Source: Chrysochromulina tobinii (lineage: Eukaryota). From it: 32,025 bases of DNA. This document shows positions 1,535 to 31,655 of this stretch, in pieces. The translations under genes were made by a program, and so were the position numbers. Position 1 is the first letter of the stretch. Every line of letters begins with the position of its first letter. The notes beneath the pieces are model-generated. The model saw only the letters and a program-made list of their open reading frames with translations, searched no databases and was not told the DNA's origin. The stretch is from the NCBI GenBank assembly GCA_001275005.1, contig JWZX01003049.1, positions 1 to 32,025 on the forward strand, given 5' to 3'.

Positions 1535-4500
1535 TCATGGAGCATGCACATCGCTCGGCTTCCGGCCCTTGCTCTCCGTCGTCGCCACCGTGCCCTCCTC
1601 ATTGCTTTCTCGCGCCTCGCGCAGCTGATCGCGCAGCCTCACGCGCTCCCAGTCGTTGGTCGATAGGATGGTCGACCCGTCCCCACTCCGCATGTGGTAC
1701 AGCCCACGGACGACTTCGTCAGCCTCGACGAGCCGCTTGATCTCGAGGCGCACGCAGCGGGAGAGGCTCACCTGCTCGCGCTTGAGCTCCTCCACGCGTG
1801 AGCGACTGTACAGCAGGCGCGCGAGCATGGGGCGCAGGTCTCGTAGGGCGATCATGCCCGACTCGACCGAGATGACTCCTATGTACCTGATGAGGGAGTC
1901 AATCAGGTGTCATCAGAGGTCGTCAATCTACTGTCGTAGGTCACGAAGAGGTCATCAAAAGGTCATCAAGAGCCCCTCATGGTTCATCCGTGGCTATAAT
2001 GTACGAGGCGAGAGGCGCGATCATGAGCAGCGTGATCACGTCGTGCGCCGACATCGAGGTGCACGCCAGCAGGAGCGCTGCATAAGAGAGCCAAACCTGA
2101 GGGACGGAGGCAATTAGATGTGTCATCAGAGGTCATCAAGAGGCACTCATGGTTCATCCGCCTAGGAGCACCATACAAGGGGCACCGCGACCTGATGAGG
2201 GAGGCAATCAGAGGCCATCAGAGGCCATCAGAGTCAATCAGAGGAGCGCCATACAAGGGGCACCGCGACCACCGCAAACTTGAGCTTCTCGGAGAGGAGC
2301 ACGTCGTGCCCCGTCCGTTTGACCGTTGAGGAGGCCAGAGCCACCCGCTGCCGCCATCTGGAGCACGCGAGGGCGGCGAGACGGATGCACTCAGAGGCAC
2401 TCAGAGGCACTCAGAGCCTATCAGAGCCAATCAGAGCCAATCAGAGCCACTCGGAACCAATCAGAGCCAATCAGAGTTCATCAGAGCCAATCAGAGCCCA
2501 TCAGAGCCAATCAGAGCCAATCAGAGCCCATCAGAGCCCATCAGAGCTCTTCAGAGCCAATCAGAGCCCATCAGAGCCCATAACAGTTCATCAGAGCCAA
2601 TCTCACTTTGACCACGCGAGGGCGGCGAGGCCCACGGGCGCGTTGAGGATGATCGAGGGCACCGACGCGATCATGAGCATCACGAACATGTGTCCTATGG
2701 TGAAGAGCGTCGCACCCACCGGAGCACGCTCGAGCGTTGGCACCTGCGAGTCACGCAGCCCGAGCCGCCGCAGCTCCTGGTCGTACCTGAGGAGGGAGGC
2801 AATTAGGTGTCATCAGAGGTCATTAAGAGGCAATCAGCTCCTGGTCGTACCGGCGCAGCCTTTGCATGAGCTCGGCCAGCTCGCGCTGACGAAGCAGCGC
2901 CTTGAGCTCGCGCAGCTCGGTCGCCACGTCACTCGCCTCGCTCGAGCCGCCGTCGCCCACGGCGGCGGCAGCGACGCCGTGGGCAGCCGGAGCGCCGCCG
3001 CTGTTGCCGCCGTTGCCGCCGCCGTTGCCGCCGCCGTTGCCGCCGTTGCCGCCGCCGTTGCCGCCGCCGTTGCCGCCGTTGCCGCCGCCGTTGCCGCCGT
3101 CGAGTTGTCGGAGGAGTCGTCGGATGCCGAAGGCAAAGCGGCGGTCAAGGTCCTGGCGCACGGCCGATTCAAGCTTGCCCGACATGCCCGGACCGCACCA
3201 GAGCCGGCGTACCACGTGGACCAGCTGCAGCTCCTCAAAGGACGAGACGGGCACGATCACGTCCCGCATGGCTCGCTCGATGCGGGCGAGCAGCGCCGTG
3301 CATGCGCGCTGCCGACGCTCGCCACCATGCGCGTGCTCCGCCTTCTCGGCCTTGGAGGCCAGGATGGGCGGCCCCACATGCACAGTCACCTTGGCGGAAC
3401 GGAACACATGCCCGCGGAAGTAGGACAGCCCGACGGGTACGATGGGCACCTGAAGCTGCGCACTGAGGGCGAGGAGCGCCACGCCCGGCTTGAGCTCCAG
3501 CAGGTCGGTGCGGTCGTGCGAGCCGCCCTCTGGGAAGATGCCTAGGCACGCGCCCCTGTCGAGCGCCTTGACCACGTCGGGAAACACCTTGTCATAGTCG
3601 CCACGGGGCAGCACGCGGTATGCGCCGCTTGCGGGCAGCGTCCAGCCAGCGTCGCCGCACGCGTGTTCATGGCGTGTGCCCAAGGCACCGTGTTGCTCAA
3701 CAAGACGCTCATATGGAGGCAAGACGGGCGAAGATGTAGGCAAACTGGCCAAGGGCGCCGGAGGCAAGACGGGCGACGCGGTTGGCGAGCTGGCGCAGGG
3801 TGGCTGCGCGAGGCGCACAAAGCATACTGCGTTGCTCTCGATCGCCGTCACGCGCCAGACCCAAGTGAGCGTCGGCCTGCGCCCGTCGACGAAACTCAGC
3901 TTGTCCCCACACCCAAGCTCCGTGCAGAAGCGGCAAGCCTCGCTGCCAACGAGCCGATAGAGATCCGCACGTGGCTCCTCGGGCTGCCCGTCAGCGGCGG
4001 CATCGCCGCCTGTGGTGCGGCCGCCCTCAGTGGGCTCGGTGGTCTCGCGCGAGGTGGCGGCGGCGGGCTCGGCGCGCAGCTGCAGCAAGGCGCCCGAACC
4101 TGCGAAGGCAACATCTTGCGGGCGCGTGACCGGCACAGCCGCCATCGCTCGCGCAAAAAAGCCGATGATCGGGTGTGTGTACGACTTGCGTGCGATGAGG
4201 AAGCTGATGCGCCGCTGCGGGCACGCACACATGACGCACATGCCGTCGATGAACTGGTTGAAATGATTGGCGACCAGGATGGCTGGCCCGTGCTGCGGGA
4301 TGTTCTCCATGCCGATGACATCGATGCGGCTGATGAAGATGGAGAGCATCGAGTTGAAGAACACACGGCCGGAGTAGAAGACGAGGCTCTGGAGGTCTTG
4401 TAGCACGGCCAACACGAGAAAACAAACAAAGGCCCATCCGAATGCCACGCGGCCCCACTCGGCCAAGCCCGCAAGCGTGCACAAGCGCTTCACCGGGTTG

Positions 4501-4778
4501 AGCGTGTCGAACGAGAGCATGATGAGCACGACGAGGATGAAGAGGTGCATCGTAGTACTCGTCGTTGAGCCGAGCACCTGGCTGCTTGGACGAGGGCGCG
4601 GAAAGGTGAGCTCGTCCTCCTCCTCCTCCTCTGGAACTTTCGGCTCAGCCATTCCAGGCACCTCCACCGGCTCCGGAATATTCGGCTCAGCCGTTCCAGG
4701 CACCTCCACTGGCGGCAGGCTTAACGAAGGTTTGTGCGGTGGCTTTGGCTCGCTCCTTGGCGGGCCAGCCCAGTCCAT
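1535..4778 (-). CDS. Glycerol-3-phosphate/DHAP O-acyltransferase, fungal Gpt2/Sct1 type; exons 4778-2851, 2786-2607, 2357-2270, 2191-2177, 2096-2005, 1886-1535 (884 aa)
   Basis: PlsC motifs ANHFNQFIDG (HX5D), VTRPQD, GIFPEGGSHD, IVPVGLSY. Removing five GT-AG introns gives one frame: ...RRYDQELRRLGLRDSQV...LNAPVGLAALAWSKWRQRVALASS...HDVLLSEKLKFAVVAVPLVWLSY...SYIGVISVESGMIALRDLRP. Exon lengths sum to 2655 nt. Confidence 0.9.
1887..2004 (-). mobile_element. Introner-like intron A (118 nt) in acyltransferase
   Basis: Sense: GTACAT...TGATGACC-type repeats...TGATTGACTCCCTCATCAG; next exon also begins GTACAT; removal restores frame (A-S-Y-I-G). Confidence 0.8.
2097..2176 (-). mobile_element. Introner-like intron B (80 nt)
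   Basis: Sense: GTATGG...TAATTGCCTCCGTCCCTCAG; next exon begins GTTTGG; removal gives P-L-V-W-L-S-Y and removes an in-frame TAG. Confidence 0.8.
2192..2269 (-). mobile_element. Introner-like intron C (78 nt) with 29-nt target duplication
   Basis: Direct repeat 2164-2192 / 2242-2270 (1 mismatch); CTGATTGACT/CTGATGGCCT units; ends TGATTGCCTCCCTCATCAG. Confidence 0.8.
2358..2606 (-). mobile_element. Intron D (249 nt): about 22 copies of a 10-nt repeat (sense TGATTGGCTC-like); acceptor region duplicated from the upstream exon
   Basis: Donor AA|GTGAGA, acceptor CTCCAG|ATGG; 17-nt direct repeat 2364-2380 / 2613-2629, offset 249 = intron length; (tcagagccaa)n array at about 2388-2600. Confidence 0.85.
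2787..2850 (-). mobile_element. Introner-like intron E (64 nt) with 17-nt perfect target duplication
   Basis: cagctcctggtcgtacc at 2771-2787 and 2835-2851; sense ends TAATTGCCTCCCTCCTCAG; the unspliced ORF stops inside it (TAA 2823-2825). Confidence 0.88.
2995..3099 (-). repeat. Coding minisatellite encoding a Gly/Asn tract (GGN/GGGN)n
   Basis: Alternating gccgccgtt and gccgccgccgtt units, in frame in the acyltransferase. Confidence 0.9.
4639..4709 (-). repeat. 42-nt-period coding duplication (PVEVPGxAEP x2)
   Basis: ttcggctcagcc[a/g]ttccaggcacctccac at 4639 and 4681. Confidence 0.85.
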
Positions 4779-5008
4779 CGACGACGGCGTCCACGAGCTT
4801 CGAGACGCTCACTCCAGGGCTGTGTGTGAATGCACACCTGAATTCAACGAAACTTGGACCCGAAAAAAGTGACAAGTCTTTTTAGAAGTTGCGCCAATTC
4901 ATCTCCGCGCCATTCCGAGCGAAGTGCATGCATGCAAGGAGTGAACCGTCAGTTTCGCAAAACCCTTGTCAAATCGTCTGCACGATCACGCTTGTGTACG
5001 TTTGCACG

Positions 5009-7318
5009 ATGCTCATGACAGACTACCAGCAGCCCACGGGCAGGCTCAACCTAAGATTCGCGGACAAGGTCGCCGACGGCCACCACCAATGGCGCAGCCA
5101 GTCGCAGCCAAATGTTCACCTCAAGGAGCGCTGTGGGGGCGGCGACCTGAACAGCCGAAGTGGCTGCGGCATGTGGAAGCCCAAGGGCGCGCCGTGCCCG
5201 CATTGCCAGCGTACCGCCAAGCAGTTCGGCCTCATTGACACGCAGCAGTCGACGCTGACGCCTATGGCAAAGCTGAGCGCAAGGCTCGGCAAACCCGTCC
5301 ACCTCACGATGCCGAGTGGAGCGCTCATGAAGAGCTCCTCGGTGTTCGCGCTGAGGACGACTGAGGAGCTTCTCAGCGGACGCCGGTACGACAGCACCAC
5401 GGCGCACCTGAGCCACGAGGAGCCGCCGACGCGACGCCCCTCGTCGGCCCAGTCGCTCGCGCCCGGCGGCAACAGTACAGGCCGCCGAAGCCCAGCCGAA
5501 GCTTCAGCGGTGTCGATCTCACCATCGTCTCGATCCGCGCCGATCTTCGAGGACGAGGCGAAGGAGATGAAGACCCTCGCCACCGCCTTGCGAGAGGCGG
5601 CCATGTGTCGCACGGAGTGTGCGCACGCCCTCGACCACCTCGCCTCCGACTTTGAGCGCGAGTTCCGCCCGGGCATTCCATCGCGCCCCGCAGCGAGCTC
5701 TCTCGTCGTCAAGAGTAGCACGATCGCCTCGCGCCTGTCGACGGCGTGCTTCAGCCTCGAGGCGGCCGCGGCGACGTGCCTGCAGATCTCGCGCATCGGC
5801 GCCATCGAGCGCGAGTCGATGATCGACGCGCTGCAGGACGACGCCATCCAATTCGATCATAGGATCGACGAGGCGAAGGCGGCGATGCGTCGCGTCGAGA
5901 TGAGCAAGCTGGACGAGCGCGCGGTGTACGACAAGCAGGCGCGCGCCACGGCGCACGCGATGGCCATCGAGCTCGCGCGCGCAGAGCACAAGATTGACAC
6001 ACTGCGCGCCGAGCTGAGCGCAAGCCGGATCCTCATGGGCAGCGCGCTCGAAGAGGAGCGCGCCAAGGTGGTCGCGCATCTGCGCGCGCAAGCGATCAAG
6101 AGGATGCTCAAGATCGAGCTGGCGCGTAGTTGGACGTCGTGGATGGACACGTACAAGCGAGGCCGGAGGCTCAAACGGCGTGCGCTGCTGCGATTTCGTC
6201 AGGGCGAGCTCAACAAGGCACTGAGCACCTGGGCTCAGGTACGTCCGCCCCCCTTTAGCCCTATACCGCCCCCCGAGAGCCCCCCGATGAGCCCTGAGGA
6301 CCTCGTTGATGACCCTTGATGACACCATCGGTGCCCCTCCGCACGGCCCAGGTACACCCCCCGATGAGCCGCATACGGCGCGCGATCGAGCCATACAAGC
6401 AGCAGATCGCCGACCTGGAGCGCGACCTACGCAAGGAGAAGGCTGCGCATGAGATGACGCGCACGATGCTCGAGGCGCGCGCGTTGACCACGGAGGAGGA
6501 GATGCATCGGCGGCGTGAGGCTGAGAAGCACCATCGCATGCAGCACCTGCTGCAGGTAGCGGTGCGCCGGACGCTCAAGATGGACCTCGCTCGCGGTTGG
6601 ACTCAGTGGCACGACGTGACCAAGCATACCAAGATCAATCGCATGCGCGCGCTCGCCCGCTTCCGCTCGCAGGGGCTGTTCAAGGCGCTGCGCACGTGGC
6701 GCCTCGTGTGCCCGCCGCGACACCTGACGCCCGAGAGCCTGATCATCTGCCAGGAGGCGCTCGAGCGCGAGCGCGCTGCGCACGCCAAGTGCCGCGCGCA
6801 GCTGGTCAAGCTGCGCGAAAAGTGGGAGACGAAGTTCGAAAAGTATCGCGAGGCCGTGCAGACGGCGGCGACGCTCCAGTCTGTGGTGCGTGAGCTGCAG
6901 GCGGTGCTCAAGGAGGCCCTCGACGCCTCCTCGTGGTCTTCCTGCCGGATGGTCCTCTACCACGAGCACCTGCGCTACGTCCCCTCGGCCGCGACGCATG
7001 GGCGCGGCGGCAGGTGGCGTGCAGGCCTCGCGCGCAAGAAAAGGGCGAGATTGATTACGAGATTGATTGCATGCTGTTTGCATGCTGTTTGCATGCTGAT
7101 TGCATGCTGATGGCCTCCTCATCAGGTGGCGTGCAGCCTCGCGCAAGAAGGGCGAGATAGACTCGCGCCTCTCCAACGGCTGGTCCGTCGGGCGCCTCGT
7201 CGACGGCTCCCATCTCGAAAAGGTGCTCACGTGGCCAAGCTCCTTGCGCGACACGCCGTTCGTGCGGAGCGAAGACCTGGTGCCATTCCCCCTGGAGCAC
7301 GAGCGCGCGATGGAGTGA
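5009..7318 (+). CDS. Coiled-coil protein with Trp-containing Sfi1-like repeats; exons 5009-6238, 6352-7013, 7126-7318
   Basis: ORFs 4889, 6316 and 7100 join in frame through GT-AG introns. Duplicated module AIKRMLKIELARSWTSW...LNKALSTW / AVRRTLKMDLARGWTQW...LFKALRTW. Start codon uncertain. Confidence 0.65.
6239..6351 (+). other. Intron F (113 nt), probably an eroded member of the duplication-intron family
   Basis: CAG|GTACGT...CCCAG|GTACAC; ccccccgatgagcc occurs in the intron (6280-6293) and next exon (6357-6370); degenerate TGATGACC units. Confidence 0.75.
7014..7125 (+). mobile_element. Introner-like intron G (112 nt) with stuttered 33/38-nt duplication
   Basis: Intron 7014-7051 copies exon 7126-7158 with +G, +CG, +AA; (ttgcatgctg)-type repeats; ends TGATGGCCTCCTCATCAG. 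Confidence 0.88.
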
Positions 7319-7449
7319 GTGAATAAGCGCGTGAATATTGTTTGAGATTGCGTATGTGTTTGTTTGCGGTGGGAGTTGGTACGAACTACATCCACAGTCA
7401 TTGGCTCTGCATCAGCAGCACGCCAGCCGTGGCATCAGCAGACCCTAAG

Positions 7450-10370
7450 CAGACCCAAGCTAGGTAATTACCTCCACCGTAGCTCTAGCTGGAGCCACGA
7501 ACATTAAGCTGCCAGGCCAAATGACATTGCTTGCCACTGAGCTCCTCCTAACCACCAGCTCAGTTGGAAAAGCAGAAGCATCAGCTTGCATGGTTACGTC
7601 GTGCTCCTACGGCCTCTCTTACCTCTCCGCTTCAACCAACAGTCGGTGCAGTTCCTTTGCCACTTTACGCTCTGCTACCGCGTACCATCTTCATCAGACG
7701 CCCTGGCGAGTGCTCTGCGAGAAGGCGGAAGCAACTTTCGACCGCCTGCTTCTGGTCATCTGGTGCGTGGTGGACAAAACCGAGCTTGTGATTCGCATCC
7801 TCAAGAAGTTTGAGCCTGATGATTCGCTCATCCACACGTTCGTGAAGAACAGCTCAAGAACAGCTCGAAGATCGTGAAGAACAGCGGCGAGCTACTCTTC
7901 GAACTGCCGCGATACGACTTATGCTTCGAGCTCTCCAGTGACAACCAACAGCTGTGGTCGAAGAACTTAATTGGCTTCTCCCTCACAGCAAGACTCAGCA
8001 GCTCAAGACGCTCCACGGCTTCTAGCAGTATCTCGTACTTGAGTCGGGCAAGCAGAAGATCCTCATTGTTCCGCGGGGCGACGTGGTGAGAGAAGGTGAG
8101 CGGGTCTTCATCGACGGATCGAGCGCGTGCGACGCCAAGCGTGAAGTCACTGAAGTGCATAGGTATGACGTGCACGAGCGTTTCAAGAGTCTCGAGTCGC
8201 CAGCTGGTCTACAGCTGGTCGGCACTCGGTACTAGCGCGCCTGCTGCTGGCCGCGCTTTCTGCTGCTACTGGCACGGTCGACCATATGCAGGCTCACAGC
8301 AGACCGGCGGAGAGCCGGAGAGTCGGCTATCGAGCTAGTGCGCCAGTGCTGGGTGAATCGTCCGCTCGATTGCGAAGAGAGCAAGCACAGCTCCAGTCCG
8401 TCTCCAACTTTAGCCAGCTCGTGCCCGCCCTTCCTTTGATCTGCCACGAGTTGTACATGAGCGCGCGTGAGATGAGTTTTCTACACGCCCCAGATGCTGA
8501 TCCCCCAGAGAAGCTGGCATTCAACGCGGACGGCGGACCCCGCGACGGAGTATACACACAGCGGAAGCAGGCTATGCAACTCAACGCGCACGAGATGTTG
8601 CGCCCTGACGAGGAAACGCGCTCGCTCGCGCACTTGGTGAGACCGCGCTCGCTAAAGAACCTCGAGCGCAATCTTGACGTCCTGCCTCCGAGTCGGAGGA
8701 GGCCACAGCAAGGTGATCCAAGAGACCGAGGAGACTTTGAAGGCGATGATCACGGAGTCGTCTACGGACTCTTGACCCATCGCTGCCTTTCCCCCTAGTT
8801 GATGTCGCAGACTTTGAAAGCACACAGCCCGGCAAGCACATGTTCACGGAGCTCCGCGATAGCTGGGGGGCGCACCAAAAGATGCTCTCAATCCAGCTTG
8901 CAGCGAAGCACACCATCCTGGCGGATCTCAAGAGACAGCGAGAGACGATTAGCGTCGTCTCGTGCATTCGGGTGCAATGTCCTGCCAACTTCAACATGCG
9001 CCGTGCCGCAAACCGTGTCCGGAATGCAAACCTGGTCCCGCACGTGACACTTCGTGACCTCGCCCGAGTATCGCCCGAGCAGCGCTCCACTCAGCCGAGC
9101 TGCTGCGCTTCAACCCGTTCCTCTCGGTATAGGGGCAGAAGCACAGTAAGGCACAGCTGCACGAGTGGGTGCTTGACTGGCTCAAGTACTGCGTGCTCGA
9201 AGACCAACTAGAGCGCATGCATTCGAGCGCCTTGGCAGCGGCCTCTGCCTCCGCCGCTGCCGCCTTCCAGGAGCTCAAGCGTGAGCTCGAAGAGATCGGG
9301 CGCGAATGGGAGGTGCATGTACACCCGGAGTGAGGAGTGGCTGGTCTTCAAAGTTGAGCAGTAGCTCAAGATCCGGCGGGTGCAGTACATGACAAGGGCA
9401 ATCCCTGTGCCGCTACTCAGCTCAGCATGGGCGAGGGCAAGACGCGCGTCATCCTCCCGATGCTTCAGCTGCACCTGCGCGGCCGGGCAAACTCGTGAGG
9501 ATGCACTTCCTCACTATTCCTCACAAAGCTCCTCGTCGAGGCTTACTTCTTCCTCCACCGTGGACACCTCACCGCCAGCCTGATGAATCGGCGGCTGTGC
9601 CTGCTGCCCTTCCACCGCAAGGTGAAGCTCACGATCAATGACGTGCTACGGATGTACCAAGGGCTGCTGCGCTGCGAGCGAAACGGCGGCGCTGTTTTCT
9701 TCACATCAGAGCACCGTCTTTCACTGCAGCTCAAGGGCCACGAGCTGCGCCTCTCTGAGAAGGGCAGCGGGGCTAATGCGGACAGCTTTGAGCGGATCCG
9801 CGCCAAGCTTGACCAGCTGCACAGCCTGCCGTACCACGATGTGAGAGCGACGAGGAGCTACGCCACCACACAGTTCCAGCTAATCTACGCATGGGGTAAG
9901 CTGCAAGCCTTTGCCGGCGGGGTCCGAGCGATGGATCGCAGCAGAGGCGCTCCTACGCGAAATCCAGCACAATCCTGAGGCGACGATAATCCTCGCCACG
10001 CCCGACGTCTCGAAGCGGCAGAAGCGGCAGCTAAGCGGCAGCCACTCTTCTGGCGCTTGGCCCGCAGGCGCAGGAGGCTGAGTACACGCTGTGGCTGTCC
10101 TCCGCTTCGCAGATGATTAACGATGAGCAGAGGCAGGCGCTCGACTCGGTTGACAAGCTCGATCTGACGAGCGAGCCGCAGCAGCTAGACATGCTCTTTA
10201 CCCTGTGCAAGTACAATATGGCTGCGGTCAACTTCTGGCTCAATAGCTGTGTGCTTCCGCGTGAAACAATGCAGTTCCCCAACCGCCTGTGGCCAACGCG
10301 TTCAACTTGACTGACAATCCCTCAGGCGAGGTGATCGGCTTCTCGGGCACCAAGGACAACAATCCTCGAG
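7450..10370 (+). pseudogene. Heavily disrupted DUF3638/DUF3645-family giant P-loop protein fragment
   Basis: Collinear motifs across shifting frames: EWLVFKVEQ*LKIRRVQY (about 9335-9388), QLSMGEGKTRVILPML (about 9418-9465), LLPFHRKVKL, EHRLSLQLK, ESDEEL...QLIYAWG, VNFWLNSCVLPRETMQFP, IGFSGTKDN (about 10334-10360). Multiple stops and frameshifts; boundaries approximate. Confidence 0.78.
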
Positions 10371-10455
10371 CGAACAGCTGTGTGTCTCAGACCAGCACGA
10401 TCGAGGGGAGGGTGGGTCGGAGGGTGGGAGGCAGCGTGTGAGACATATGGGCTAG

Positions 10456-10540
10456 GCTACATGGGGACGCTCACGGCTCACCCAGGCTGTCTGTGGGGGG
10501 CTGGGGGCTTGGGTACATGGGGACGCTCACCCAGGCTGCT
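10456..10540 (+). repeat. Short intergenic direct repeat
   Basis: tacatggggacgctcac...ccaggctg occurs twice (about 10458 and 10514). Confidence 0.7.
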
Positions 10541-10855
10541 GTGGCTGGGTTAAACTGAACAACCATGTCCTACCATGTCACGTGTGTGTGTCTGCGTGAA
10601 ACTGGTCCTACCGACAGTACACCGCGAAGCGCGCGCTAGCCCGCCCCTGTTTAGGGGCGGCATGGTGGCTGCTCACGCGACCACTCAGCACTGGCGATTA
10701 TCAGATCGCATGAACGTTTCACAGCGTACAGCAGCGTTGTACAGCGATCGATGAACGCGTCCCAAGAGAGACTGAGGTGCGTGTCTGTGAACTCCTCCTG
10801 GTACCAACTCACAGTGAAAAGGTCGTGCGTGCCCGGAACTTTCCTTCCCCGAAGC

Positions 10856-12424
10856 ATGCGGGCAACTGGCTCACTCGCCGCGAAAGGTTCACTCGCCGCG
10901 TCGCGTGCGAGCGTCTGTGCACGAGTGAGGCGCCTGTGCACGAGTGACACGCGCGGAGCTGCGCTGGGCGCGTACGGTGGAAAGGGTAGCAAGGGCAGCG
11001 GCAAGTCGCTCATGGGCTCGAAGGCACGTGGGCGAGGAGCGCACCTCACCATGGAAGAGCTTGCGGCCCTTGAGCGCGGCGAGCTGCAGGCTGACCTCGA
11101 TCTGGATGCGGGCGATGTGCTGATGGAGGTGCTGGCAGAGGACCATCGCCACAGGAAGGACTCGAGGAGCCTCGAGTTCCTCGAGGGCGGTTCCTCGAGG
11201 GCTGGTGGCGCCAACGACGAGGAGGTCCGGCGAGCTGAGCCGAGGATTGCGCATCGCCAATACCTCACAGACGCGGGCGTTGGGCCAGGTACCATGTTCC
11301 AGCGGCAGCAAGCCGCGCAGCAGCGGCGCCTTGAAATCGCCCAATCGAATGCATTCGACTACCACATGCCTCAGGAGGCGAAGGCAGCGCGCGAGCACGA
11401 GCGCCGTTCGCGGGCCAAGATGCGCGAGCACGACGTTGTGGAGAACCGCATTCAAGAGGCGATGTCGACTGGCGCGTTTGACAATCTGCCCGGGGCAGGG
11501 AAGCCTCTCAAGCGCGAGGAGAATGTCTTCGAGCAGATCTCCGGTGATGCGATGGCCCATCGGATTCTGAAGAACGCAGGCATCGCTCCGGGTTGGGTGG
11601 AGCAGCGCAAGGAGATCCGCGCCGCGCTCGCCAAGGCGCGCATCGAGCTCGCCCTCGACTGGGCCTCGTGCGTGCCCGTGTGGCCGCTGCCACCTCCGCC
11701 ACCCGAGATGGCTACGTTTGCCATCGGTACCGATGTGCAGCCCGCGTCGGCCGAGCCGAAGGTCGTCGATGCGGCTCCGCCCGGCGCCGCCAGCGGCGGC
11801 TGGCGCATCTACCGCGCCCCGGCAGAGCTCCAAGACACACCAGACCCCGATGCCACCAGGACTGCGGCTGCGGCGGACGCGGCGCCCAGGACGGCGGACG
11901 AGGCGCCAGTAGCGGCGACGGCCTCAGCGTCGGCTGCGGAGGAGGCAGAGCCCTCGGAGGATGAGCTCAAAGCCCGGGAGCAGGCAGCCGCGGCGGCCGC
12001 GGCACTGGCCAAAGCACAGGCCGCCGAGATGGCGAACGCGGCCGCGGCGAGCGGTCCACAGCCGTTACATTGGGCGGCGTCCATCGCACGCTTCCATGAA
12101 GAGCTCAAGGTCGTCAACAAGATGATCGACTCTTTCAACCTGAGCGTGCCTGCCTCGTGGCAACAGATACACAAGCTCCAGCCTGCAGCTGAGCTCACGC
12201 GCGCGCTCCACGAGGCGCCGCAGCGCGTGCAGGAGCTCAAGGCCGAGCGGCGCAGCCTACGCGCCGAGGCCGAGGCGCTCGCTGCCTCGTCGAGCAGCGC
12301 GGGCAGGAGCGCCATGGGAGCGGCTGCACTATTTGGCGGCGCCGAGCCCTCGTTTGCGGTGCGACAAGGGCCCTACTTCCCAAACGTCTTCGAGGCCTTG
12401 GCGTCGGCGCTGTTCTCGCGTTGA
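10856..12424 (+). CDS. DUF1992 (DNAJC28 conserved domain) protein, possibly mitochondrial
   Basis: VVENRIQEAMSTGAFDNLPGAGKPL...MAHRILKNAGIAPGWVEQRKEI, later VNKMIDSFNLSVP; Arg/Ser/Ala-rich N-terminus; no HPD J-domain seen. Confidence 0.82.
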   Translation: MRATGSLAAKGSLAASRASVCARVRRLCTSDTRGAALGAYGGKGSKGSGKSLMGSKARGRGAHLTMEELAALERGELQADLDLDAGDVLMEVLAEDHRHRKDSRSLEFLEGGSSRAGGANDEEVRRAEPRIAHRQYLTDAGVGPGTMFQRQQAAQQRRLEIAQSNAFDYHMPQEAKAAREHERRSRAKMREHDVVENRIQEAMSTGAFDNLPGAGKPLKREENVFEQISGDAMAHRILKNAGIAPGWVEQRKEIRAALAKARIELALDWASCVPVWPLPPPPPEMATFAIGTDVQPASAEPKVVDAAPPGAASGGWRIYRAPAELQDTPDPDATRTAAAADAAPRTADEAPVAATASASAAEEAEPSEDELKAREQAAAAAAALAKAQAAEMANAAAASGPQPLHWAASIARFHEELKVVNKMIDSFNLSVPASWQQIHKLQPAAELTRALHEAPQRVQELKAERRSLRAEAEALAASSSSAGRSAMGAAALFGGAEPSFAVRQGPYFPNVFEALASALFSR

Positions 12425-13074
12425 ACTTCCCTATGCGGTCTCACGCCGCGCATATCGGGAAATGTTTACCGCGCGAATGAATTGGAAATGTCCTAGTGGC
12501 CGGGCTCGCACGCAATTGCTCGCACGGCTGGTGGGGCGGAGTTGCTTCTTGTCGGGGTAAACGAGAACAATAAGGACGAATTACGAATCCGAACCCCGTG
12601 CGGTGTATGCTGTATCCGTCGGTCCGGTCCAATCTCGCAAAACGCATGCGCGAAGACCGACCCGGCACGACGCACATCCCACCCCACCTCTGTATGTCAG
12701 CTGTCTCCTCGCGTCGCCGGCTGTATCACAAGACACAAGCCGGCGCGAAGAGAGCCTTTCTCTGAGAGACGCGGATTACCCGTAGTTGTGCGTCCTCGTC
12801 CTGGCGCCGTCGGTCTTCCCTGGCGCGCGATTACATGTAAGGAGCCGCGAACCGGTTGAGGTGCACGTTGGGTCCTACCGTACGCTGTTATGCTCCGGCC
12901 TCGCGAGTCGCGTACGTTCATCGTTGCTCCCGTCCTCCTTGACGCCTTTTTCTTTTCTTGCGTGACGATGCCAAATCCCAACTCGTCATCCCGCCGCGTT
13001 CGCGTCGCATCGTCGGACGGCAACGCTGCGCTGCTATTCGCAGCTGGCTCGCGATGCCTTCGTGTTCGTGGCCA

Positions 13075-17556: not shown

Positions 17557-18222
17557 CTAATCATCCTCCTCCTCCGCGGCGTTCGCCTCCGCAGGAGTCT
17601 CCTCCTCCTCGAGCAGACCATCGGGCAAGTGCGTAGAGATCACCTACGCTCAGAAGATGCGCACATGGCGATGGTTTGAGTGGGCGGGACTGACAAGGAA
17701 AAGCGCTGCGTGGGTCTCAGTGTGCGGCTGGGCTCCGTGGCGCACGCGCGCGCCTTTTGGATCAAAGGCACGTTTACGCCCACAATCGGCTCGGCCACCA
17801 GCTCGCCACCGTTCAAGGCAATGATCGTCGGCCTCGCCTCTTCCTTGTATCTCTCAAACAACTTCTGCTCGTCGGGACTGGAGTAGTTCTCGTTCTTCAA
17901 GTTGGCGCACATCTTCCACAGACGCAGCTTCTTGAACTCACACACATAACTGATGTGAAAGTTCGAAAGCGGGTTCTTCATCGCGTCCGAGGGGCCGCAC
18001 CACTCCGCATAGATCTCCACAACTGCGCGCACAAGCATGGACGCGGAGCACGGATCGCTGAGTCAAGTCGTGGAGGAACTGCGCGCAGGAGAGGCGCCAG
18101 CTTAAGTTGTAGGCGAGCGCACTGTGGAGCATGCCCTCGCTAGCCGCACTGCCGTAGATCTTGTTCCACTTCTCGACCGTGTCGATCTGCTGAAACGTGG
18201 GACCATCGACTGAGAAGCCCAT
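17557..18222 (-). CDS. Thioredoxin-like protein (WCGPS), resembling flagellar dynein light chain/NME8-9 type; exons 18222-18123, 18022-17754, 17643-17557 (151 aa)
   Basis: Spliced: MGFSVDGPTFQQIDTVEKW...MLHIVEIYAEWCGPS...RPTIIALNGGELV...IVGVNVPLIQKVISTHL + acidic tail. Intron 1 GT-AG (18023-18122), intron 2 GC-AG (17644-17753). Confidence 0.8.
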
Positions 18223-18493
18223 AAAACAACGTTCGTTGTGATCCTTGGAACGTCCCACGCGCGTGTGTGAATGTTAACACTGTATCTCAGTACTTTCATC
18301 GCTGCTCTCATCACTGTGCTCTCCCACCCGGGGGCACTCATGCAAAAACAAACGTTCGTGATCAATACGACGCGGCCCGCCACCGCAGGATGGCCGGTGA
18401 CCTCTGTCCGGCGCTCGTCGGTACGACGCCCGTGAAGATTTGTTACGTGCGCGAAACTGACGGGCAAATACCTTTCACTCTCACGAGCGAGAT

Positions 18494-19354: not shown

Positions 19355-19531
19355 TGTGCCGAGGTCCACGCGAACGCAGAGAACTCACCCTTTCTTCGAG
19401 TCGGCCACGCAGAAACGCACTAGGCTACATGCACATGTGAAAAGCGTGATAACCCGACCCTCTCCCAGCTTCAACCTTATTTAGAAGCAGTTTGGGGCAA
19501 GTCTTCGAAGCGTTCAGCCCGTTCACCCTCG

Positions 19532-23273: not shown

Positions 23274-23418
23274 TGCGTCGCGGCCGAGATCGCAAGGAAA
23301 GAGACTGTGAATTACAAACATTGGCTGTGAATGGGCTGCTTTATATTATCGCGAGTGTGAAGAATGACCAAGCTAGGGGCAGGTCTAGGAGAAGCACCTA
23401 AGCAACACGCGTACAGTT

Positions 23419-26400
23419 TCAGATGAGCTTCGCCTCGGCGGCGCTGAGCTTCGCCTGCAGCTCTTCCTTTTCGTTGACGAGCTGTAGGATCTGCTCCGAT
23501 TGCGCCTGCAGCATCATGCGCATTTGCCCCTCATCCTCCGCGTCGATGGTGCCCGGCCCCCGCCCGAGCACGCGCCCCCCGGTGGCGGAACGCACCCATG
23601 GCGCCGCGTCGCGGACTCCATGGCGTGTTTCGCGCGCCTTGGCAAGCTTCACCTCCAGAGCCGTCATCTTCTCAAGCTCGGCGACCCGCTGGACCTTCGC
23701 CTTGCGCTGCAGCCGTTGCTGCTCCGCGAGCTCGTGCCCCAAGGCCACCTTCTCGGCGAGCGCCTGCGCCGCCTCCATCTTGGCACGGCGGAGCTCCGCC
23801 GTGAGCGCCTCCACCTGATGAGGGAGGCCATCAGCATGCACTCAGAGACGCACTCGGACGCAATCAGGCGGAGCGCCGCCGTGAGCGCGGCCGTGAGCGC
23901 CTCCACCCGCGCCAATGCGTGGAGGGTCGAGCGCAGAGGATCCGCGGAGAGGCGATCAGCCGCCACGCCGCTGCCGCCCACCGCTGCGCCGACACCCTGG
24001 GCGCCGCTGCCCTCGGCACGAGCGGACTTGGCGCGAAAGGCAGCGGCGTCGGACTTGAGCTGCTCGATCTCGTCTTGCAGCGCGTCGCGCTGCTGACGGC
24101 AGCGCACAAAATCCGCTTTGGCGCTCAGCAGTGCCATCTCCGCATCCTGCTCGGCGTCTGAACCGTGCGTGGACCCTGGCTTCGCCCAACTCAGCGCGCT
24201 CGCCACGGCGCTACCGTGCGTGGACCCTGGCTTCGCCCAACTCAGCGCGCTCGCCACGGCGCTGGCGGCACTCGCCTCGCCGACGTCAGCGCCGCTCCCC
24301 GGCGCGCGGTCCGCCCAATACGGCGCGCGGTCTGCCTGCAGCCGCCCAGCTGGGATGCGTGCCGCCTCGGCCGCCTCGACCGCCACCATCGCCTCCGCCT
24401 CGGTCAGCTTCCGATGCGCCATCGCCACCTCGCGTTCAGTGGGCCGACCGAACAGTTGGCTCAGGGCGTAGATGCCGCCGGCGCCCGTGCCGGCGCTGAT
24501 GGCCACCGGCACGCGCACGGACGCCGCGCCGCCCGCTGCGCTGCCCTCCGCGCCGTGGTGGGCACTTGCATGCGCGCCCCCCGCCGCCTTACTGGCTGCG
24601 CCGTCCGCCACGCCGCCCGCCGCGCCGCCCGCCTCGCCGCCGTCCGATACGTCCACGGGGTGCGCTGAGACGGGGGCGGCACCCAGTACAGCGCGGTAGG
24701 CGTGCGCGGCCACCTGCGGTGCACCGCTCTTGAGGTACATGTTCGCTGTGGAAAGGAGGAGGGAGACGCGAGGATGCACCATGAAGGCGGCCTCGTACGC
24801 GCCACGTGCGCGCGCTGCATCGCCCACCTCGTTCGCCGCTTTCCCCTCGGCGATCAGCTGATCAGCGAGCTGAGAGGCCGCGCTGCCCCCAATCCCGCCT
24901 CCCCGCCCGTCAACGCCGCCGTCGCGGGCCGCAAGTTGGGCAAGCCTTGCGTGCGCTGCCGCGTGCTCGAGAAGGGATTGGACCCGTGATTGCCCATGCT
25001 CGGCCGTCGCCGCCGCGCGGCTGGCCAACTCATATGCACAGCGCTCGAGGTAGAGGCTCGCCCGTGCGGACGCTTCCTGCTCGGCCGCCACGAGCGTCGC
25101 CAGCTGACCGCGCTGCAGTTGCATGCGGTCAGCTAGCGCCGCATGCTCCGCCGTGAGCCGACCGAGCTCGGCGCGCGCCGTGCTGAGCGCCTGCTCGGCA
25201 CGTTCTCGCGCCGCGAGCTCCTCCTCGCGCCTGGCGATCGCCGCGGCGGCCATCTCCTGCGCCGGCTTGATGGCGGTCTCCGCACGGCTCTGCGCCGCGA
25301 TGGCTGCGGCGAGGTCTGTCTTCTCATCAGCGTTGGCCGTAGCCGAGGCCGCGGCCGAGGCCTCGAGGCAGCTGAGCGCCTCACGGGTCGCCTCGAGCGC
25401 GTCCTTAGCCTGCTCGGCCTCACGCATCGCCCTCGCCACCGCCGCGCGCGCCGCCGCAGCTTCGGCGAGAGCCGCGGCTGCCTCCGCCTCGGCGCTGGCC
25501 GTGTGCTTTGCCTTGAGCTCCGCCTCGAGCTCAAGCAGACCGAGCTCGGCAATGCAAGCTCTCCTCTCGTACTCGAGACGGTCGGCGCGCCTCGAGGCTT
25601 CGAAGTTCGCCTCCTGCATGCTCGCGAGCTGCTTCTCGAGCACCACGGTTCGCGCCTCCGCCGCCACCAGCGCCGTCGCCGTCGCGGCCGCCTCCATTTT
25701 AGGATCGATTCCTTTTTTAGGCTCGCTTCCCTTTTTAGGATCGCTTCCACCGAGCGTCTCCGTCCCCGCACGTCCGTAGTAGCTTTGCGAGTTCCCTGGC
25801 GTGTACTTATACACTGTCTTGCCTTCCTCCGTCTCCTCTTTGAGCTTGCCTTCGGCGAGGAGCTGCTCGAGCAACTTATGCCGAGCCAGCTGCCCCCCGG
25901 TACGTGAACTCGTTCTTCAGCTCGAGGTGCCTGGGCATCAGAGCACCGAGCACGCGCCCGGCGCCGCGCTTGCCACGCTGCTGCTCCTCGATCATCGCCT
26001 CGAGCTCCTCCTCCGTGTCCAAGTCGCGGTCGTCCTCCACGTCCGACGCCGCGTCCGACTCGCCCGACTCGCCTCCGGCCGCTTGATGTGAGGCCGCTTG
26101 ATGTGCCACTCGGCCTGCGCCACCGCCGCCGCGCCGGCCGGCGCTGGCTCGCGGGAAACTCTCGCCCGCCTCCGACCCGACGTCGGACAAGTCGGCGTCG
26201 GTGTCGTCGTCGGCCGTGGGCCAACCTGACGACTCCGCCTCTGACCCGATGGACGACAAGCTGTCGCTCCGACCCGAGTCGCTGCCCGAGTCGCTCGATG
26301 CGAGCGGCTTGCCGCTGGAGCCGTGCTTGTCGTAGTTGCGCAGCCAGCGCGAAGAGAGCGTGAGCACGAGGTCGCCCACGGGCACGCCGTCGTGCAGGAG

Positions 26401-26790
26401 CACGAGCATGAGCTCCTCGCTCACGGCCTCCAGGCTGGCATGCCGTGCGAGGTCCACCTTGGCGCGCCCGAGCGGCCGGAAAGAGCCGGTCTTCTTGCCC
26501 TCTCGGCCGCACAGGAGCGTGAAAGTAGCCTCCTTGGGAAGGTATTGGGCGGCGCCGCGATCGGGGTCGCGGTACATGGTGCACACGAGCGAAAGCTCCT
26601 CGTCATACGAGGCCACGCCGACGCTGCTGGCGGCAAAATCGCGCGTCGAGGCTGCACGATCACCCTTCTTCCACAGAACGCGGTAGCGCACGTCCGGCAA
26701 GAGGGCAATCCCGTCGCGCAGGCTCACCGACCGCACCTGCACAGAGAAGTGGTACTTGAACTTGCCGCCCTTGTGCAGGAACCTCTTCAT
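23419..26790 (-). CDS. NT-C2 (EEIG1/EHBP1-type) domain protein with coiled coils and a TPR-like segment; apparent frameshift at 25893-25898, intron 23815-23906
   Basis: N-terminus KFKYHFSVQV...VLWKKG...YDEELSLVCTMYRD...YLPKEATF...LGRAKVDLA; three ORFs joined by a 1-nt shift and a phase-0 intron. Confidence 0.78.
23815..23906 (-). mobile_element. Introner-like intron H (92 nt) with 28/40-nt duplication
   Basis: Intron start (23867-23906) copies exon start (23787-23814) with an internal 12-nt re-duplication; sense ends TGATGGCCTCCCTCATCAG. Confidence 0.88.
24162..24263 (-). repeat. Perfect 51-nt coding tandem duplication (SAVASALSWAKPGSTHG x2)
   Basis: Identical units starting at 24162 and 24213. 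Confidence 0.92.
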
Positions 26791-26984
26791 GAACTTGCGA
26801 CTTCGGGCGTGCCGTCCGTGTGAGCGGGTCGCAAGTTCTTGCGAGCACACTTGCCCCCTGCTAGAAACCCCGCCTCGCGCCGCACTGTAACTGCAGCCCC
26901 TTTTCACATACTGTTCACCGATGGACGTGGGTGAAAGTTGGTGGGTTTTGATTGGACGAGAACAAGATCAACTTTTCGTGGGGT

Positions 26985-28068: not shown

Positions 28069-28877
28069 GATCTCTAGGACGTCACGTCGAACGGGACGCG
28101 AAGACCGAAGTCGCGTTGTGCGAAACCCGAAACGAAACACTTACCTCTTTCGTTAGGGGGGAAATTGAGTAAAACACGACCAGTGTGTCGCTCGGTTGCA
28201 ACTTGCAAGCCGGACTTCTTAACCGTTTCGCGGTTCGTTCGCGGATCCTCCGGTCCGCCCCGGCGCCGGCCCCGTGCGCACGGGCCACGGCAGGTCGGAC
28301 GGGGAGACTCGTTTATTATTACGAGTACCGTACGTACCCCCGACCCGGGCACGATCTCTGTTCTCTCTGTCTCTCCTCCACTCGATGTCTCTGCCCCGCA
28401 CTCGTGGTGTGCGCCCTGCGGAAGCAACGAGCGACATGATCCGAGTCGACTCGGCACGAGCACGAGTCGCAGTCCGCGACACGACGCGGGCGCCTTCTCT
28501 TCTTGATGGGCCCGCTTGGGCTTCACACACGCCAAGCCCCGCAGCCACATTCGGCATCTCGCTTCAGAGCACTGGCGTGCCGATCCCCGCGTGTGCTTTC
28601 GCCCTGCCCCGATGCCCGAGTACGGAGAGGCGAGATCACGTCGCGTGGGCGCAGCCACCTTGCTCCCAGCGGGTTCTCTTCGCCTCACACAGTGCACGCG
28701 AGAGGTCCTAGAGAGAGCATCGCAGCATCGGCGATCCTCACCGTCCAGCCAAGCTCGTTCGCTATCGCCCCATGCACTCCCGCGGCGAGCCACTTCATGC
28801 TAGTGTGTCCTTGCCCTGTATGCACCGCGCCTTTCCGCGCTGATATACCGCGCCAGCCTGCGCCGTCGCGGCGCGTC

Positions 28878-31655
28878 TCACTTGGCGGCCTTGCCTTTCT
28901 TGGCGGCCGCAGGCTTGGTTCCCATCTCGGGCTGTGTGGGGCGCGCCACGTCCCGCAGCCGTACGGCGAGCCCGCCGCGCTCGCCAACGAGCTCGACCGC
29001 ATGGCGCTGGCCCGCCTCTTCAAAGTATTCCTCACCCACCTTGATGAAGCAGTCCACCTTGAGCAACCCGACCTTAAACTTCTCTACCTCCTCCTTGCGG
29101 AACTCATGCTTCTTCCGGAGCGCCTCGCTGAGCGCCTCGTTGAAGAGCTCGGTACCAGAAGCTGGTCGCTCACGCCCAACATTCGTCCACTTGGTTCCGA
29201 GCGCGGGCGGCTCGTTGGCCAGGTGGAGCAGGCAATAAAAGGCCTGCGCAATCGAGATGCTCTCGGGCTTGGCGGGCGGCGGCATCCGCTCGGGCAGCCG
29301 ATGCAAAGCCTGCTGGAAGTCCACCACGCGCGTCGGCGAGCCCGCACCGTCGCCCTGTAGCAGGGTCCACAGATCCTCCTTGAGCTTGCCCACATCCACC
29401 ACTGTCGAGCGGCGTGCGGTGGGCCAATCCTTGGAGCTCACCTGATGAGGGGATTACTCAGAGGTCATCAGTGCCAATCAGAGGTCATCGGGGGCCAATC
29501 CTTGGAGCTCACCTGATGAGGGGATTACTCAGAGGTCATCAGTGCCAATCAGAGGTCATCAGGGCCAATCCTTGGAGCTCACCGCGATCTGCGCCGGCGG
29601 GACGATGGGCGCGGGCGCAGGGGCGCGAGGGCCGGCGCCGGCGCCACCATCCTGCTCGTCCCCGCCACCGATATCCCATCCGCCCTCCTCGTCGGGCCAG
29701 TTGCCGTCGTCGCCGTCGTCGCCCCCGTACGCGTCGACGCCATCGGCTGCGCCCTTGCTCGCTGCACCGGGCTCGGCGGAAGAAGAGGGTCCGTTGGCGA
29801 GGGCCTGGGAGCCGTCGGCGTCCGGGAACAGGCTCTCGGTCCGGCGCTTGGCCTGACGCTGCTGGCGCTGCACGTGCCGCTCGTACGCGATGCGCTTCGA
29901 CGGGCGCTCGAAGAGCGTCTCGAGCGCCGCCATCTGCACTTGGAAGTCGCGCTTGAGCAGTGTCTCAGCCGCCTTGGCCTTGGAGAGCATCGTCTTGGTC
30001 AAGATGGTCGTCCCCTTTGTGTCGAGCGCCGCCGCGTCCTCCAGCTCAAGTACGAGCGCCGCCGCGTTCGAAAAGTCGACCGTGACCGGCTCCTTGGCCT
30101 TGCGCGCCCCCGCACCCGCGCCGGCCGCGCCTCCCGCAGCAGCCGCGCCCACACGGTTCCGGCGTCTCCTCGCTAGCTGCTCCGCCATGCTGCTGCCGCC
30201 CTGGTACCCGTTGCCCTCGAGCCCGCCCCCGTCGAGCTCGAGCTCGTCGCCGGCGTCGTCGATGAGCGATGCGGGGCCCTCGGCATCGACGAGGCCGATG
30301 AGCCCCCCCTGGGACTGCGCCACGCGCTCGTCGGGCTCGTCGGCAGCTCCGGGTCCGTCGTCGCCCCAGCCGTCGGCGCCGTCGTCGGCGAACTCATGAG
30401 CACCAGGGCTCGACAGCGCTGGGGGTGCAACCTCGGGCGCGGCGGCCAGCTCGGGCTCCAGCTCGGGCCCCGGCTCTGGCTCTGGCTCCGGCTCGGGCTC
30501 CGGCTCGGGCTCGAGCTCGAGCTCGAGCTCCGCCTCCGGCTCCTCCTCGCCGTCGTCGGGCTCGCCGTCGGGCCGCCGCTCCGCCCAATACTGTCGGAAG
30601 GCTGTCGCCACCCGGAGCTCCTTTGTCACCGTGGGCAGCAGGCCGACCAGAGCGGCCGCGGGCAGCGGCGCCGGCGGCGCGGCGACCTGCGCCTGAGCCC
30701 GCGCCGCCGCACTCGCCACCTCCGCGTCGCGCGCGTCGAGGACGAGCGTGAGGCCGTCGGCGCCGAGGTCGAGGCTGTGTACCATCAGGCCGCGCGCGCC
30801 CTTGATGCCGTACAGCGCGGAGGTGCGGTAGAAGAACGGGTCGGCGTCGGCGCCGAGTTCGTGCTTATCCATGTTTAGCTTCGACGGGTCGGTCTCCAGG
30901 TACGCGGTCGGGTTCTTGCGCTTGGGCTTCTTGGGCTTCTTGGGCTTCACGATCTTGGACTGGACGAAGTTGAACAGTTCCGTCGCCTTGGCGTCGCTCA
31001 GGTTCAGCTGCGTCGCGATCTCGTGCATGTCGGCGGGACTGGCCGTCTTCTTAGCCTCGGCCATGAGCGCGGTCATCTCTTCCACGACCGACGCCTCCGC
31101 CCACTCGGGCGCGCCCTCGAGGTCGACTGCGCCAGCCTTGGCGCCCTCCTCCTCCTCCTCCTCGTCCGCCGGGTCGTCCACCTTGGCGCCCGGCCGGTCG
31201 ATCATGCGGCGGAGCCGCTCCTGCTGCATCTCGAGCGCATCGACACGCGCCGCGATGATCCGGGAGCCCGCATCGAGCATCATCGCCCCCTTTTGGAAGA
31301 TCTCGATGGTACCGCCGGTGGAGTTGCGGTCCATGTCGCGGATCATCCGGTCCATGTCGTCGATGTTGTACGCATTCAGGAAGGCATTCTTCTTGTTCAC
31401 CTTGTTGTCCATGAAGCGCTTCATCGCGTCGCCGTAACCCTCTAGGCGTCGCTCCTGGCGACCTGGCGTTTCCTTGAGCGGTGACTTCACCTTGGCGAGC
31501 TGCTTCTGCACCGCCGCCTGCGCGGCCTCCTGGCGCTCGTTCTCGTCATCGTTCTCGTCCAGGCCGACGTCACCAGGCAGGAACCCGCCGGACAGGCGGC
31601 GCTTGCCGCCCGACGAGTTGCGCCGGGGGGCGATCACCGGCAGCGGAGAGCTCAT
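28878..31655 (-). CDS. NCAPH: Condensin I kleisin subunit CAP-H (Barren/Cnd2/Brn1); exons 31655-29583, 29441-28878
   Basis: DNKVNKKNAF, FQKGAMMLDAGSRIIAARVD, DPFFYRTSA...GARGL, VDVGKLKEDLW, ISIAQAFYCLLHLANE. Confidence 0.9.
29442..29582 (-). mobile_element. Tandem twin introner-like introns (29513-29582 and 29442-29512) with no exon between
   Basis: 22-nt gggccaatccttggagctcacc present three times (29421, 29492, 29562); each unit in sense is GTGAGC...TAATCCCCTCATCAG. Confidence 0.88.

What the first reader, a model, noticed from the sequence alone, without database searches (positions are those of the whole stretch)
1887..29582. Family of introner-like introns built from long, variable target duplications plus CTGAT repeats
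Seen: eight introns in four unrelated genes (1887-2004, 2097-2176, 2192-2269, 2787-2850, 7014-7125, 23815-23906, 29442-29512, 29513-29582) share one design. Each has a copy of the first 6-40 nt of the downstream sequence starting at a GT, then 9-10-nt TGATGACCTC/TGATTGCCTC-like units, then a near-invariant ...CCTCCCTCATCAG acceptor. All are in sense orientation in both + and - genes, and splicing restores the protein exactly. Established: introners in Micromonas and Aureococcus are non-autonomous DNA transposons whose short target duplication supplies one splice site. Inference: the long variable duplications and variable repeat bodies here do not fit a fixed-stagger transposase. They suggest a distinct intron-creating mechanism, such as target-primed or repair-associated templated repeat addition. 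I cannot confirm whether this has been described for this taxon.
Basis: partly seen in the sequence, partly recalled or inferred. Interest (0 to 1): 0.93.

Follow-up and report, generated by a model that had tools for sequence, protein, structure and literature searches.

The report
Self-copying introns with long target duplications
Ten introns in four genes of the alga Chrysochromulina tobinii share one repeat-built insert set between two copies of a 13-32-base stretch of the host gene, RNA shows four such segments cut out exactly, and they likely spread by the copying of spliced-out intron RNA back into genes, a proposed route of intron birth that published screens of this genome were built to miss.

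Summary
Real, and larger than reported. The window is C. tobinii. All eight inserts exist, and two more were missed (2358-2606, 6239-6351). RNA contigs skip 1887-2004, 2097-2254, 2358-2606 and 2787-2850 exactly; the DNA run does not. The design: a GT-first copy of 13-32 nt of the host exon, then a body that starts at a CTGAT-like unit (8 of 8) and ends at (C)ATCAG or a worn form, so both ends are defined and form a 5-7-nt inverted pair. A 97%-identical relative reads through both gene-B sites; a 99.4%-identical lake allele carries an extra, 12%-divergent copy at 2787. Inserts cluster (5 of 9 in 375 exon nt). A published screen lists 0 introner families for this genome; the 2022 method required similarity at both intron ends. 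Fixed short-stagger transposition is excluded. Best guess (0.4): excised intron RNA copied in at a staggered break. Rivals: short-TIR DNA element with loose stagger (0.3), repair-templated insertion (0.15). No enzyme found. This scan noted one such intron before in this genome (e1-2577349).

The parts
1887..2004 (-). Family intron, 118 nt; worn 14-nt duplication (10/14), body starts CGGATG, ends TCATCAG; relatives have another 3' end here
   Evidence: Skipped in RNA runs X10, X12, X8, not in X3
2097..2176 (-). Older family intron, 80 nt; worn 16-nt duplication (11/16), shares a 15-nt string with 1887
   Evidence: Removed in RNA as part of the 158-nt joint 2097-2254
2192..2269 (-). Young family insert, 78 nt; 28-nt duplication (27/28) that includes a 15-nt exon piece and the 5' end of the 2097 intron
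2358..2606 (-). Missed member, 249 nt, long repeat body; the 25-nt duplicate (21/25, GT-first) lies at its 3' end, read as an old insert whose splice sites slid by one duplication length
   Evidence: Skipped in X10 and X12; needed for the 884-aa frame; sliding is inference
2787..2850 (-). Family intron, 64 nt; 13-nt duplication plus 3 shared bases; present twice in tandem in lake allele L002
   Evidence: Skipped in three RNA runs
6239..6351 (+). Missed member, 113 nt; expanded 55-nt lead ending in a 14-nt exact copy of the downstream exon, then CTGAGG; worn acceptor
   Evidence: Removal needed to match KOO24829.1; leave-one-out profile hit weak, E 0.06
7014..7125 (+). Family intron, 112 nt; about 32-nt duplication with 5 inserted bases; unit number varies among alleles
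   Evidence: no RNA cover
23815..23906 (-). Family intron, 92 nt; 27-nt duplication with a later 12-nt internal repeat
   Evidence: Restores a 728-aa frame; not RNA-tested
29442..29512 (-). Tandem copy 2 in condensin H, 71 nt
   Evidence: joined protein aligns across the site with P0309 and P0363; not RNA-tested
29513..29582 (-). Tandem copy 1 in condensin H, 70 nt; 20-nt duplication then CTGATGA
   Evidence: not RNA-tested
1535..4778 (-). Host gene: glycerol-3-phosphate acyltransferase (PF01553 family), 884 aa when spliced
5009..7318 (+). Host gene B: hypothetical coiled-coil protein, 694 aa (KOO24829.1)
23419..26790 (-). Host gene C: NT-C2 domain (PF10358) and coiled coil; whether the two upstream frames are one gene was not tested
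28878..31649 (-). Host gene: condensin subunit H (PF05786), 876 aa when spliced

Best explanation
These are spliced introns of one repeated family, each set between two GT-first copies of 13-32 nt of host exon, and they likely multiply when the RNA of an excised family intron is copied back into a gene at a staggered break. Shown: the anatomy, the splicing of four segments, shared bodies, absence from related proteins, clustering. Inferred steps: (1) splicing frees an RNA whose 3' end is exactly CAUCAG; (2) its locus-specific 5' lead is trimmed or skipped back to a CUGAU unit that can pair with that end; (3) the 3' end is joined to, or copied onto, target DNA just before a GT, by target-primed reverse transcription with a borrowed enzyme or by a half reverse-splicing step; (4) the other strand is broken or extended 13-32 nt further on, and fill-in gives the duplication; (5) the duplicate GT is the donor, the insert brings branch site (CTGAT/CTAAT) and acceptor, so the mRNA is restored and each new intron is a new source; (6) later slippage, tandem doubling, end replacement and sliding remodel the copies.
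For: Long variable duplication with one precise end is the footprint of target-primed copying (established knowledge, recalled); precise 3' and variable 5' junctions were seen for partly reverse-spliced group II intron RNA (PMC3280974, passages). The 3' end falls exactly at AG with no upstream homology in 1887 and 2097. All 10 are sense and genic, none in 8.4 kb non-coding where 33-144 would be expected if insertion were untargeted and neutral there. No promoter or ORF is needed, since each copy is transcribed and excised. Clustering: 5 of 9 events in 375 of 22,560 exon nt, P 5.5e-5, post hoc. G precedes the GT in 6 of 8 (P 0.008). Junction microhomology 12 nt in 5 inserts against 5.4 expected, P 0.02. 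In 5 of 6 folded 3' ends the terminal CAUCAG pairs with a CUGAUG unit in the minimum-energy structure.
Against: No reverse transcriptase, small RNA or free intron was seen. The folds are not beyond shuffles (z -0.06 to -2.07). Published reverse-splicing models predict clean insertion without duplication. The in-register CTGAT start and inverted ends are what a transposase leaves. Genic bias does not discriminate well: published Chrysochromulina introners with short duplications are up to 98% genic. Sense bias and GT follow from selection alone. No donor-locus exon fragment was traced in any body. The microhomology test used junctions I chose by eye, 5 of 6 scorable, and weakens if bodies are taken to start at CTGAT.
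Confidence: 0.4

Rival explanations
1. A non-autonomous DNA transposon with 5-7-nt inverted ends (CTGAT(G)..(C)ATCAG) and subterminal repeats; its two ends are joined to the target strands at loosely coupled positions, giving 13-32-nt duplications; any internal CTGAT can serve as left end.
For: 8 of 8 bodies start at a CTGAT-like unit right after the duplication (chance about 5e-6 to 2e-5 with a post hoc motif; about 2e-3 for the 4 exact CTGAT cases). Symbiodinium introners also run CT..AG with a GH-first duplication as donor. 1887 and 2097 start at the same point of a shared string. Local hopping would explain clustering. Bacterial IS1549/IS1634 make long variable repeats (recalled, no call).
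Against: Every introner class read has a fixed 3-9-nt duplication. The inverted ends are very short and coincide with branch site and acceptor. No antisense or intergenic copy in 32 kb. No transposase found; bodies are far more variable than published families.
Confidence: 0.3
2. Repair of staggered breaks (3' overhangs give the duplication) with a polymerase-theta-type templated insertion copied from a nearby or abundant family intron; selection keeps only products that splice.
For: 3'-overhang breaks give small tandem duplications (PMC8355091, passages); new Daphnia introns carry 4-12-bp direct repeats (PMC4202315, passages). Neighbouring inserts 1887, 2097, 2787 share 15-17-nt strings; leads of 6239 and 23815 hold iterated target copies.
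Against: Does not by itself put the 5' junction at a unit start in 8 of 8; ragged and inverted products should litter non-coding DNA and are absent; lone inserts in gene C and condensin need templates in trans.
Confidence: 0.15
3. A tiny SINE-like RNA of the opposite strand (terminal hairpin followed by a tail of 10-nt repeats) is retroposed by a LINE enzyme that primes on the tail and slips on it; only antisense-to-gene insertions at GT survive as introns.
For: Variable duplication, unit-register and weak microhomology at the repeat end; stem-loop-plus-repeat 3' ends of L2-type LINEs (recalled).
Against: No promoter in a 50-100-nt element; contigs leaving the acceptor share no continuation (agreement about 0.4 among 95 and 32 contigs); no non-genic copies.
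Confidence: 0.1
4. Old ordinary introns whose 3' ends were homogenised by a repeat, or an assembly artefact.
For: At 1887 relatives have an intron with another 3' end, so end replacement does occur.
Against: Locus-specific duplications up to 28 nt, read-through relatives, independent assembly and RNA joints.
Confidence: 0.03

Closest known systems
Symbiodinium and Polarella glacialis introner-like elements, classes 4/5 and 6/8/10 (bioRxiv 10.1101/2020.10.14.339549; parts 1-2 of 4 read)
   Same: [quoted passage not shown]
   Different: Their duplications are fixed at 4 or 8 nt per class; here 13-32 nt and variable, with a body of 9-11-nt units and only 5-7-nt inverted ends.
Chrysochromulina sp. 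TARA introners (PMC9860276, passages and supplement searches)
   Same: Same genus, strongly genic, one splice site co-opted.
   Different: 4-bp duplication, carry the 5' site and co-opt the 3' site. C. tobinii was screened and is listed with 0 families in the 2025 data set (PMC12130899 supplement file 7).
Reverse-splicing model for Micromonas and fungal introners (PMC4540971, PMC10996645; passages)
   Same: Short, non-coding, sense-only, genic, precise intron 3' end.
   Different: The model inserts the whole intron cleanly; here the donor's 5' lead is not carried and a long duplication is left.
Daphnia pulex new introns from staggered breaks (PMC4202315, passages)
   Same: Direct repeat of adjacent exon at one end, internal repeats, repeated gains at one site.
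   Different: Repeats 4-12 bp and mostly unrelated filler; here 13-32 nt and one shared family.
Non-LTR retroposons and non-LTR introners (PMC12130899, passages and supplement file 8)
   Same: Variable duplication length is their recalled hallmark; about 5% of classified introner families are non-LTR, one in Pavlovales.
   Different: No poly(A) or simple tail on the sense strand, no ORF, under 250 nt; none of the 14 non-LTR rows or 14 of 15 haptophyte rows seen lists a duplication above 11 nt.

Membership tests
Introner (operational sense) | Spliced out of mRNA | tested here: met
   4 joints in RNA contigs, absent from the DNA run; 5 members not RNA-tested
Introner (operational sense) | Related sequence at unrelated gene positions | tested here: met
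   Leave-one-out profile finds 7 of 8 at E<0.02, 6239 at E 0.06
Introner (operational sense) | Absent from orthologous sites in relatives | tested here: inconclusive
   P0159 (96.8%) and P0003 (65%) read through the sites as single ORFs on contigs up to 8.9 and 12.4 kb; their DNA was not seen, transcripts not excluded
Introner (screen criterion of PMC9860276) | Similarity between introns begins within 10 bases of both ends | tested here: not met
   First 13-55 nt are locus-specific; criterion read
TIR DNA-transposon introner | Fixed short target duplication (3-9 nt) | tested here: not met
   13-32 nt, variable
TIR DNA-transposon introner | Terminal inverted repeats | tested here: inconclusive
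   5-7 nt CTGAT(G)..(C)ATCAG, in register in 8 of 8 with a degenerate motif; no longer arms found
TIR DNA-transposon introner | Autonomous transposase partner | not testable with these tools
   No genome held; none in the window
Non-LTR retroposon | Variable-length target duplication | tested here: met
Non-LTR retroposon | Random 5' truncation with microhomology | tested here: inconclusive
   Microhomology P 0.02 but starts are in unit register
Non-LTR retroposon | Poly(A) or simple 3' tail; reverse transcriptase partner | not testable with these tools
   No tail on the sense strand; partner not searchable
Reverse-spliced (TSD-less) introner | Clean insertion of the whole intron without duplication | tested here: not met
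Daphnia-type repair-born intron | Unrelated filler with 4-12-bp direct repeat | tested here: not met
   Shared family body, longer repeats

The most novel reading that the evidence does not exclude
The spliced-out intron RNA is itself the mobile unit: a spliceosome-made CAUCAG end is joined to transcribed DNA and repair leaves a long duplication, so a large share of this alga's introns would be the first genome-scale natural footprint of spliceosomal intron retrotransposition, each new intron seeding more.
Probability: 0.2. Interest if true: 0.95.

Novelty: new variant of a known kind. Interest (0 to 1): 0.74.

Why it matters
How new introns arise is an open question, and RNA-based intron transposition has been proposed without a clear natural footprint. 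Here a cultured alga with public RNA data carries a family whose duplications are two to four times longer than in any introner class read, and variable. Because the first 13-55 bases of each intron are locus-specific, a both-ends similarity screen cannot see it, so published counts (0 families for this genome) may miss a whole class. Whichever mechanism wins is new: either RNA-templated intron copying or a eukaryotic DNA element with long loose staggers. The family also shows intron sliding and tandem doubling in progress, and it breaks gene models (the NCBI acyltransferase model P0125 stops at 570 aa against 884).

Tried and rejected
No whole genome was available, so no genome-wide count. 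Summed contig depth at the 2192 bin is 74,443 against about 44 in single-copy bins; the tool warns this is no copy number, so it is only a hint of very many copies. Motif scans: viral contigs 0, 0 and 13 hits, prokaryote genomes 2 hits; all 15 lack repeat body and duplication, so chance. Metagenome scan gave 5 loci of 457 candidates; L003-L005 lack the introns but may be transcripts and were not used as empty sites. Condensin homolog searches gave 1 and 0 hits; the representative search gave two useful homologs among 150 listed. Rfam: 0 matches. A resemblance of the units to box C/D motifs (recalled) was dropped: no terminal D box, no Rfam hit. A significant terminal hairpin was not supported. 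Helitron/Replitron reading dropped: long duplications (Helitrons make none). RNA contigs do not cover gene B in the runs laid, which says nothing either way. Paper searches that found no description of this family; the genome paper's matching passages mention introns only as one per gene (PMC4580454); PMC12480563 passages had nothing on it. Not seen: the SI appendix of PMC9860276 and the cut end of its table file, files 13-14 of PMC12130899, the C. parva genome paper, the Current Biology version of the dinoflagellate paper, and the Emiliania genome paper, whose report of 10-11-bp intronic repeats I only recall and which may describe a related phenomenon.
Full report
Source. The window is eukaryotic, GC about 0.6-0.7. 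A cluster look-up lists KOO24828.1 of Chrysochromulina tobinii on a contig of 32,025 nt, the window's length, and the neighbouring gene with two introns removed equals KOO24829.1 at all 694 residues. No whole genome was available, so all counts concern this window and fetched relatives.

Observation. All eight intervals begin GT and end AG on the sense strand. RNA contigs of runs X10, X12 and X8 skip 118 nt (1887-2004), 158 nt (2097-2254) and 64 nt (2787-2850); X10 and X12 also skip 249 nt (2358-2606); the DNA run X3 shows none of these joints and spans the inserts. These runs may be of the same strain, which suits a splicing test but is no independent occurrence. A tenth member, 6239-6351, is needed for KOO24829.1. 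Removing 23815-23906 or both tandem copies restores long frames, and the condensin joint aligns with two homologs; these three were not tested in RNA. An independent assembly is 99.98% identical over 1-14777.

Anatomy. Each insert reads: duplicate of the downstream exon starting at GT, body of 9-11-nt units, terminal unit. Exact matches are 2-21 nt. Measured to the first unit, duplications are 14 (1887, 10/14), 16 (2097, 11/16), 28 (2192, 27/28), 13 (2787), 20 (29513), about 32 (7014, five inserted bases), 27 (23815, with a later 12-nt repeat) and about 19 (6239, of which the last 14 nt match exactly after an expanded lead). In 8 of 8 the body starts at a CTGAT-like unit (CTGAT four times, CGGAT twice, TTGAT, CTGAG), the inverse of the ATCAG end; chance is about 5e-6 to 2e-5 for a 4-5-nt window, optimistic because the motif was chosen afterwards. 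CTGAT/CTAAT 15-20 nt before AG is a branch-site consensus (established knowledge), so the body is a run of branch sites ahead of a pyrimidine tract. 2358-2606 has its 25-nt duplicate (21/25) at the 3' end, but that duplicate also starts with GT, the exon copy starts GC at a glycine third position, and the body starts GTGAG; I infer an old insert whose splice sites slid by one duplication length.

Family and age. A profile of eight 3' ends hits only the ten introns at E<0.5, all sense, none in about 8.4 kb of non-coding DNA that includes a 3-kb decayed DUF3638 region; left out in turn, 7 of 8 are recovered at E<0.02. Separate inserts share strings of 15-17 nt, so bodies descend from members. 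In DNA run X3, 95 contigs leave the acceptor after GT and 32 after G alone, with no common continuation (the table is cut). P0159, 96.8% identical to gene B, on 23 contigs up to 8.9 kb, reads through both sites without indels; P0003 (65%) and P0007 are uninterrupted acyltransferases on 12-16-kb contigs. Their DNA was not seen, so they are likely, not proven, empty alleles. Of 15 listed members of the close acyltransferase cluster, 13 stop a few residues into the 2787 insert, so it is shared there. Lake allele L002, 99.4% identical in exon, has two tandem copies at 2787: one differs from the window at 2 of 64 bases, the other from its neighbour at 8 of 64, too many for a doubling since the split; it is either a second insertion or an old pair reduced in this strain. 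Alleles at 7014 differ in unit number, and relatives have another 3' end at 1887: bodies keep changing after insertion. At 6239 and 23815 the intron copy matches the residue found in relatives rather than the present exon. Five of nine events fall in 375 of 22,560 exon nt (P 5.5e-5, post hoc).

Mechanism. Shown: two target copies, defined ends, sense and genic placement, clustering. Not shown: any enzyme or intermediate. A fixed-stagger transposase is excluded. I put 0.4 on copying of excised intron RNA: it gives the exact AG end and a promoter-free source, long variable duplications are the recalled mark of target-primed copying, and partly reverse-spliced group II intron RNA gives precise 3' and variable 5' junctions. 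Against it: published reverse-splicing models leave no duplication, the pairing of the ends is no stronger than in shuffles, microhomology is weak (P 0.02, 5 inserts), and the unit-register start suits a transposase. A short-TIR DNA element with loose stagger gets 0.3, repair-templated insertion 0.15, an antisense SINE-like RNA 0.1. The lack of non-genic copies (33-144 expected if untargeted) looks decisive but is blunted by published short-duplication Chrysochromulina introners being up to 98% genic.

Known systems. It works like Symbiodinium and Polarella class 4/5 introners (donor from the duplication, acceptor carried, CT..AG ends) but fails their fixed 4-8-nt duplication. Chrysochromulina TARA introners have 4-bp duplications and the opposite arrangement. 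C. tobinii was in the 2022 genome list and has 0 families in the 2025 table; the 2022 method required similarity near both intron ends, which this design fails. Eight paper searches found no description; the library lacks most subscription papers, and unseen supplements or the Emiliania genome paper may bear on this.

Verdict. A real, spliced, recently active intron family: a new variant of introner with unusually long variable duplications, mechanism open between two new routes. Interest 0.74.

Noticed in passing
window 28878-29220 (-): Condensin H continues past its Pfam domain into an unnamed domain of about 70 residues that occurs in up to 8 copies in many large proteins (653 hits at E<=0.001) and has no Pfam match.
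   Followed up: no
window 1-99: Nested inverted repeats at the contig start (30-nt arms, 80% complementary; a perfect 13-nt pair), MITE-like or a hairpin repeat.
   Followed up: no
window 7400-10400 (+): Decayed gene in many short frames with one DUF3638 match (E 9e-14); the breaks are shared by the independent assembly L001; it holds no family insert.
   Followed up: partly
window 13075-15324 (-): Intron-free PARP gene of 749 aa, near-identical in many lake metagenomes.
   Followed up: no
window 17560-18260 (-): Small gene that appears to carry ordinary introns without the repeats, so family and non-family introns coexist (read from sequence).
   Followed up: no
window 25874-25876 (-): The NT-C2 frame stops where the coiled-coil frame begins in another phase; a short ordinary intron or two genes.
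   Followed up: no
window 2994-3102 (-): Gly/Asn-coding microsatellite in the acyltransferase whose length varies among close relatives.
   Followed up: no
NCBI model P0125 (KOO24828.1): The public model of the acyltransferase ends at 570 aa with a false tail; RNA joints give 884 aa.
   Followed up: yes
table 5c: Other loci show two family bodies separated by 14-40 unique bases, one in an RNA run, suggesting tandem inserts are common genome-wide.
   Followed up: partly
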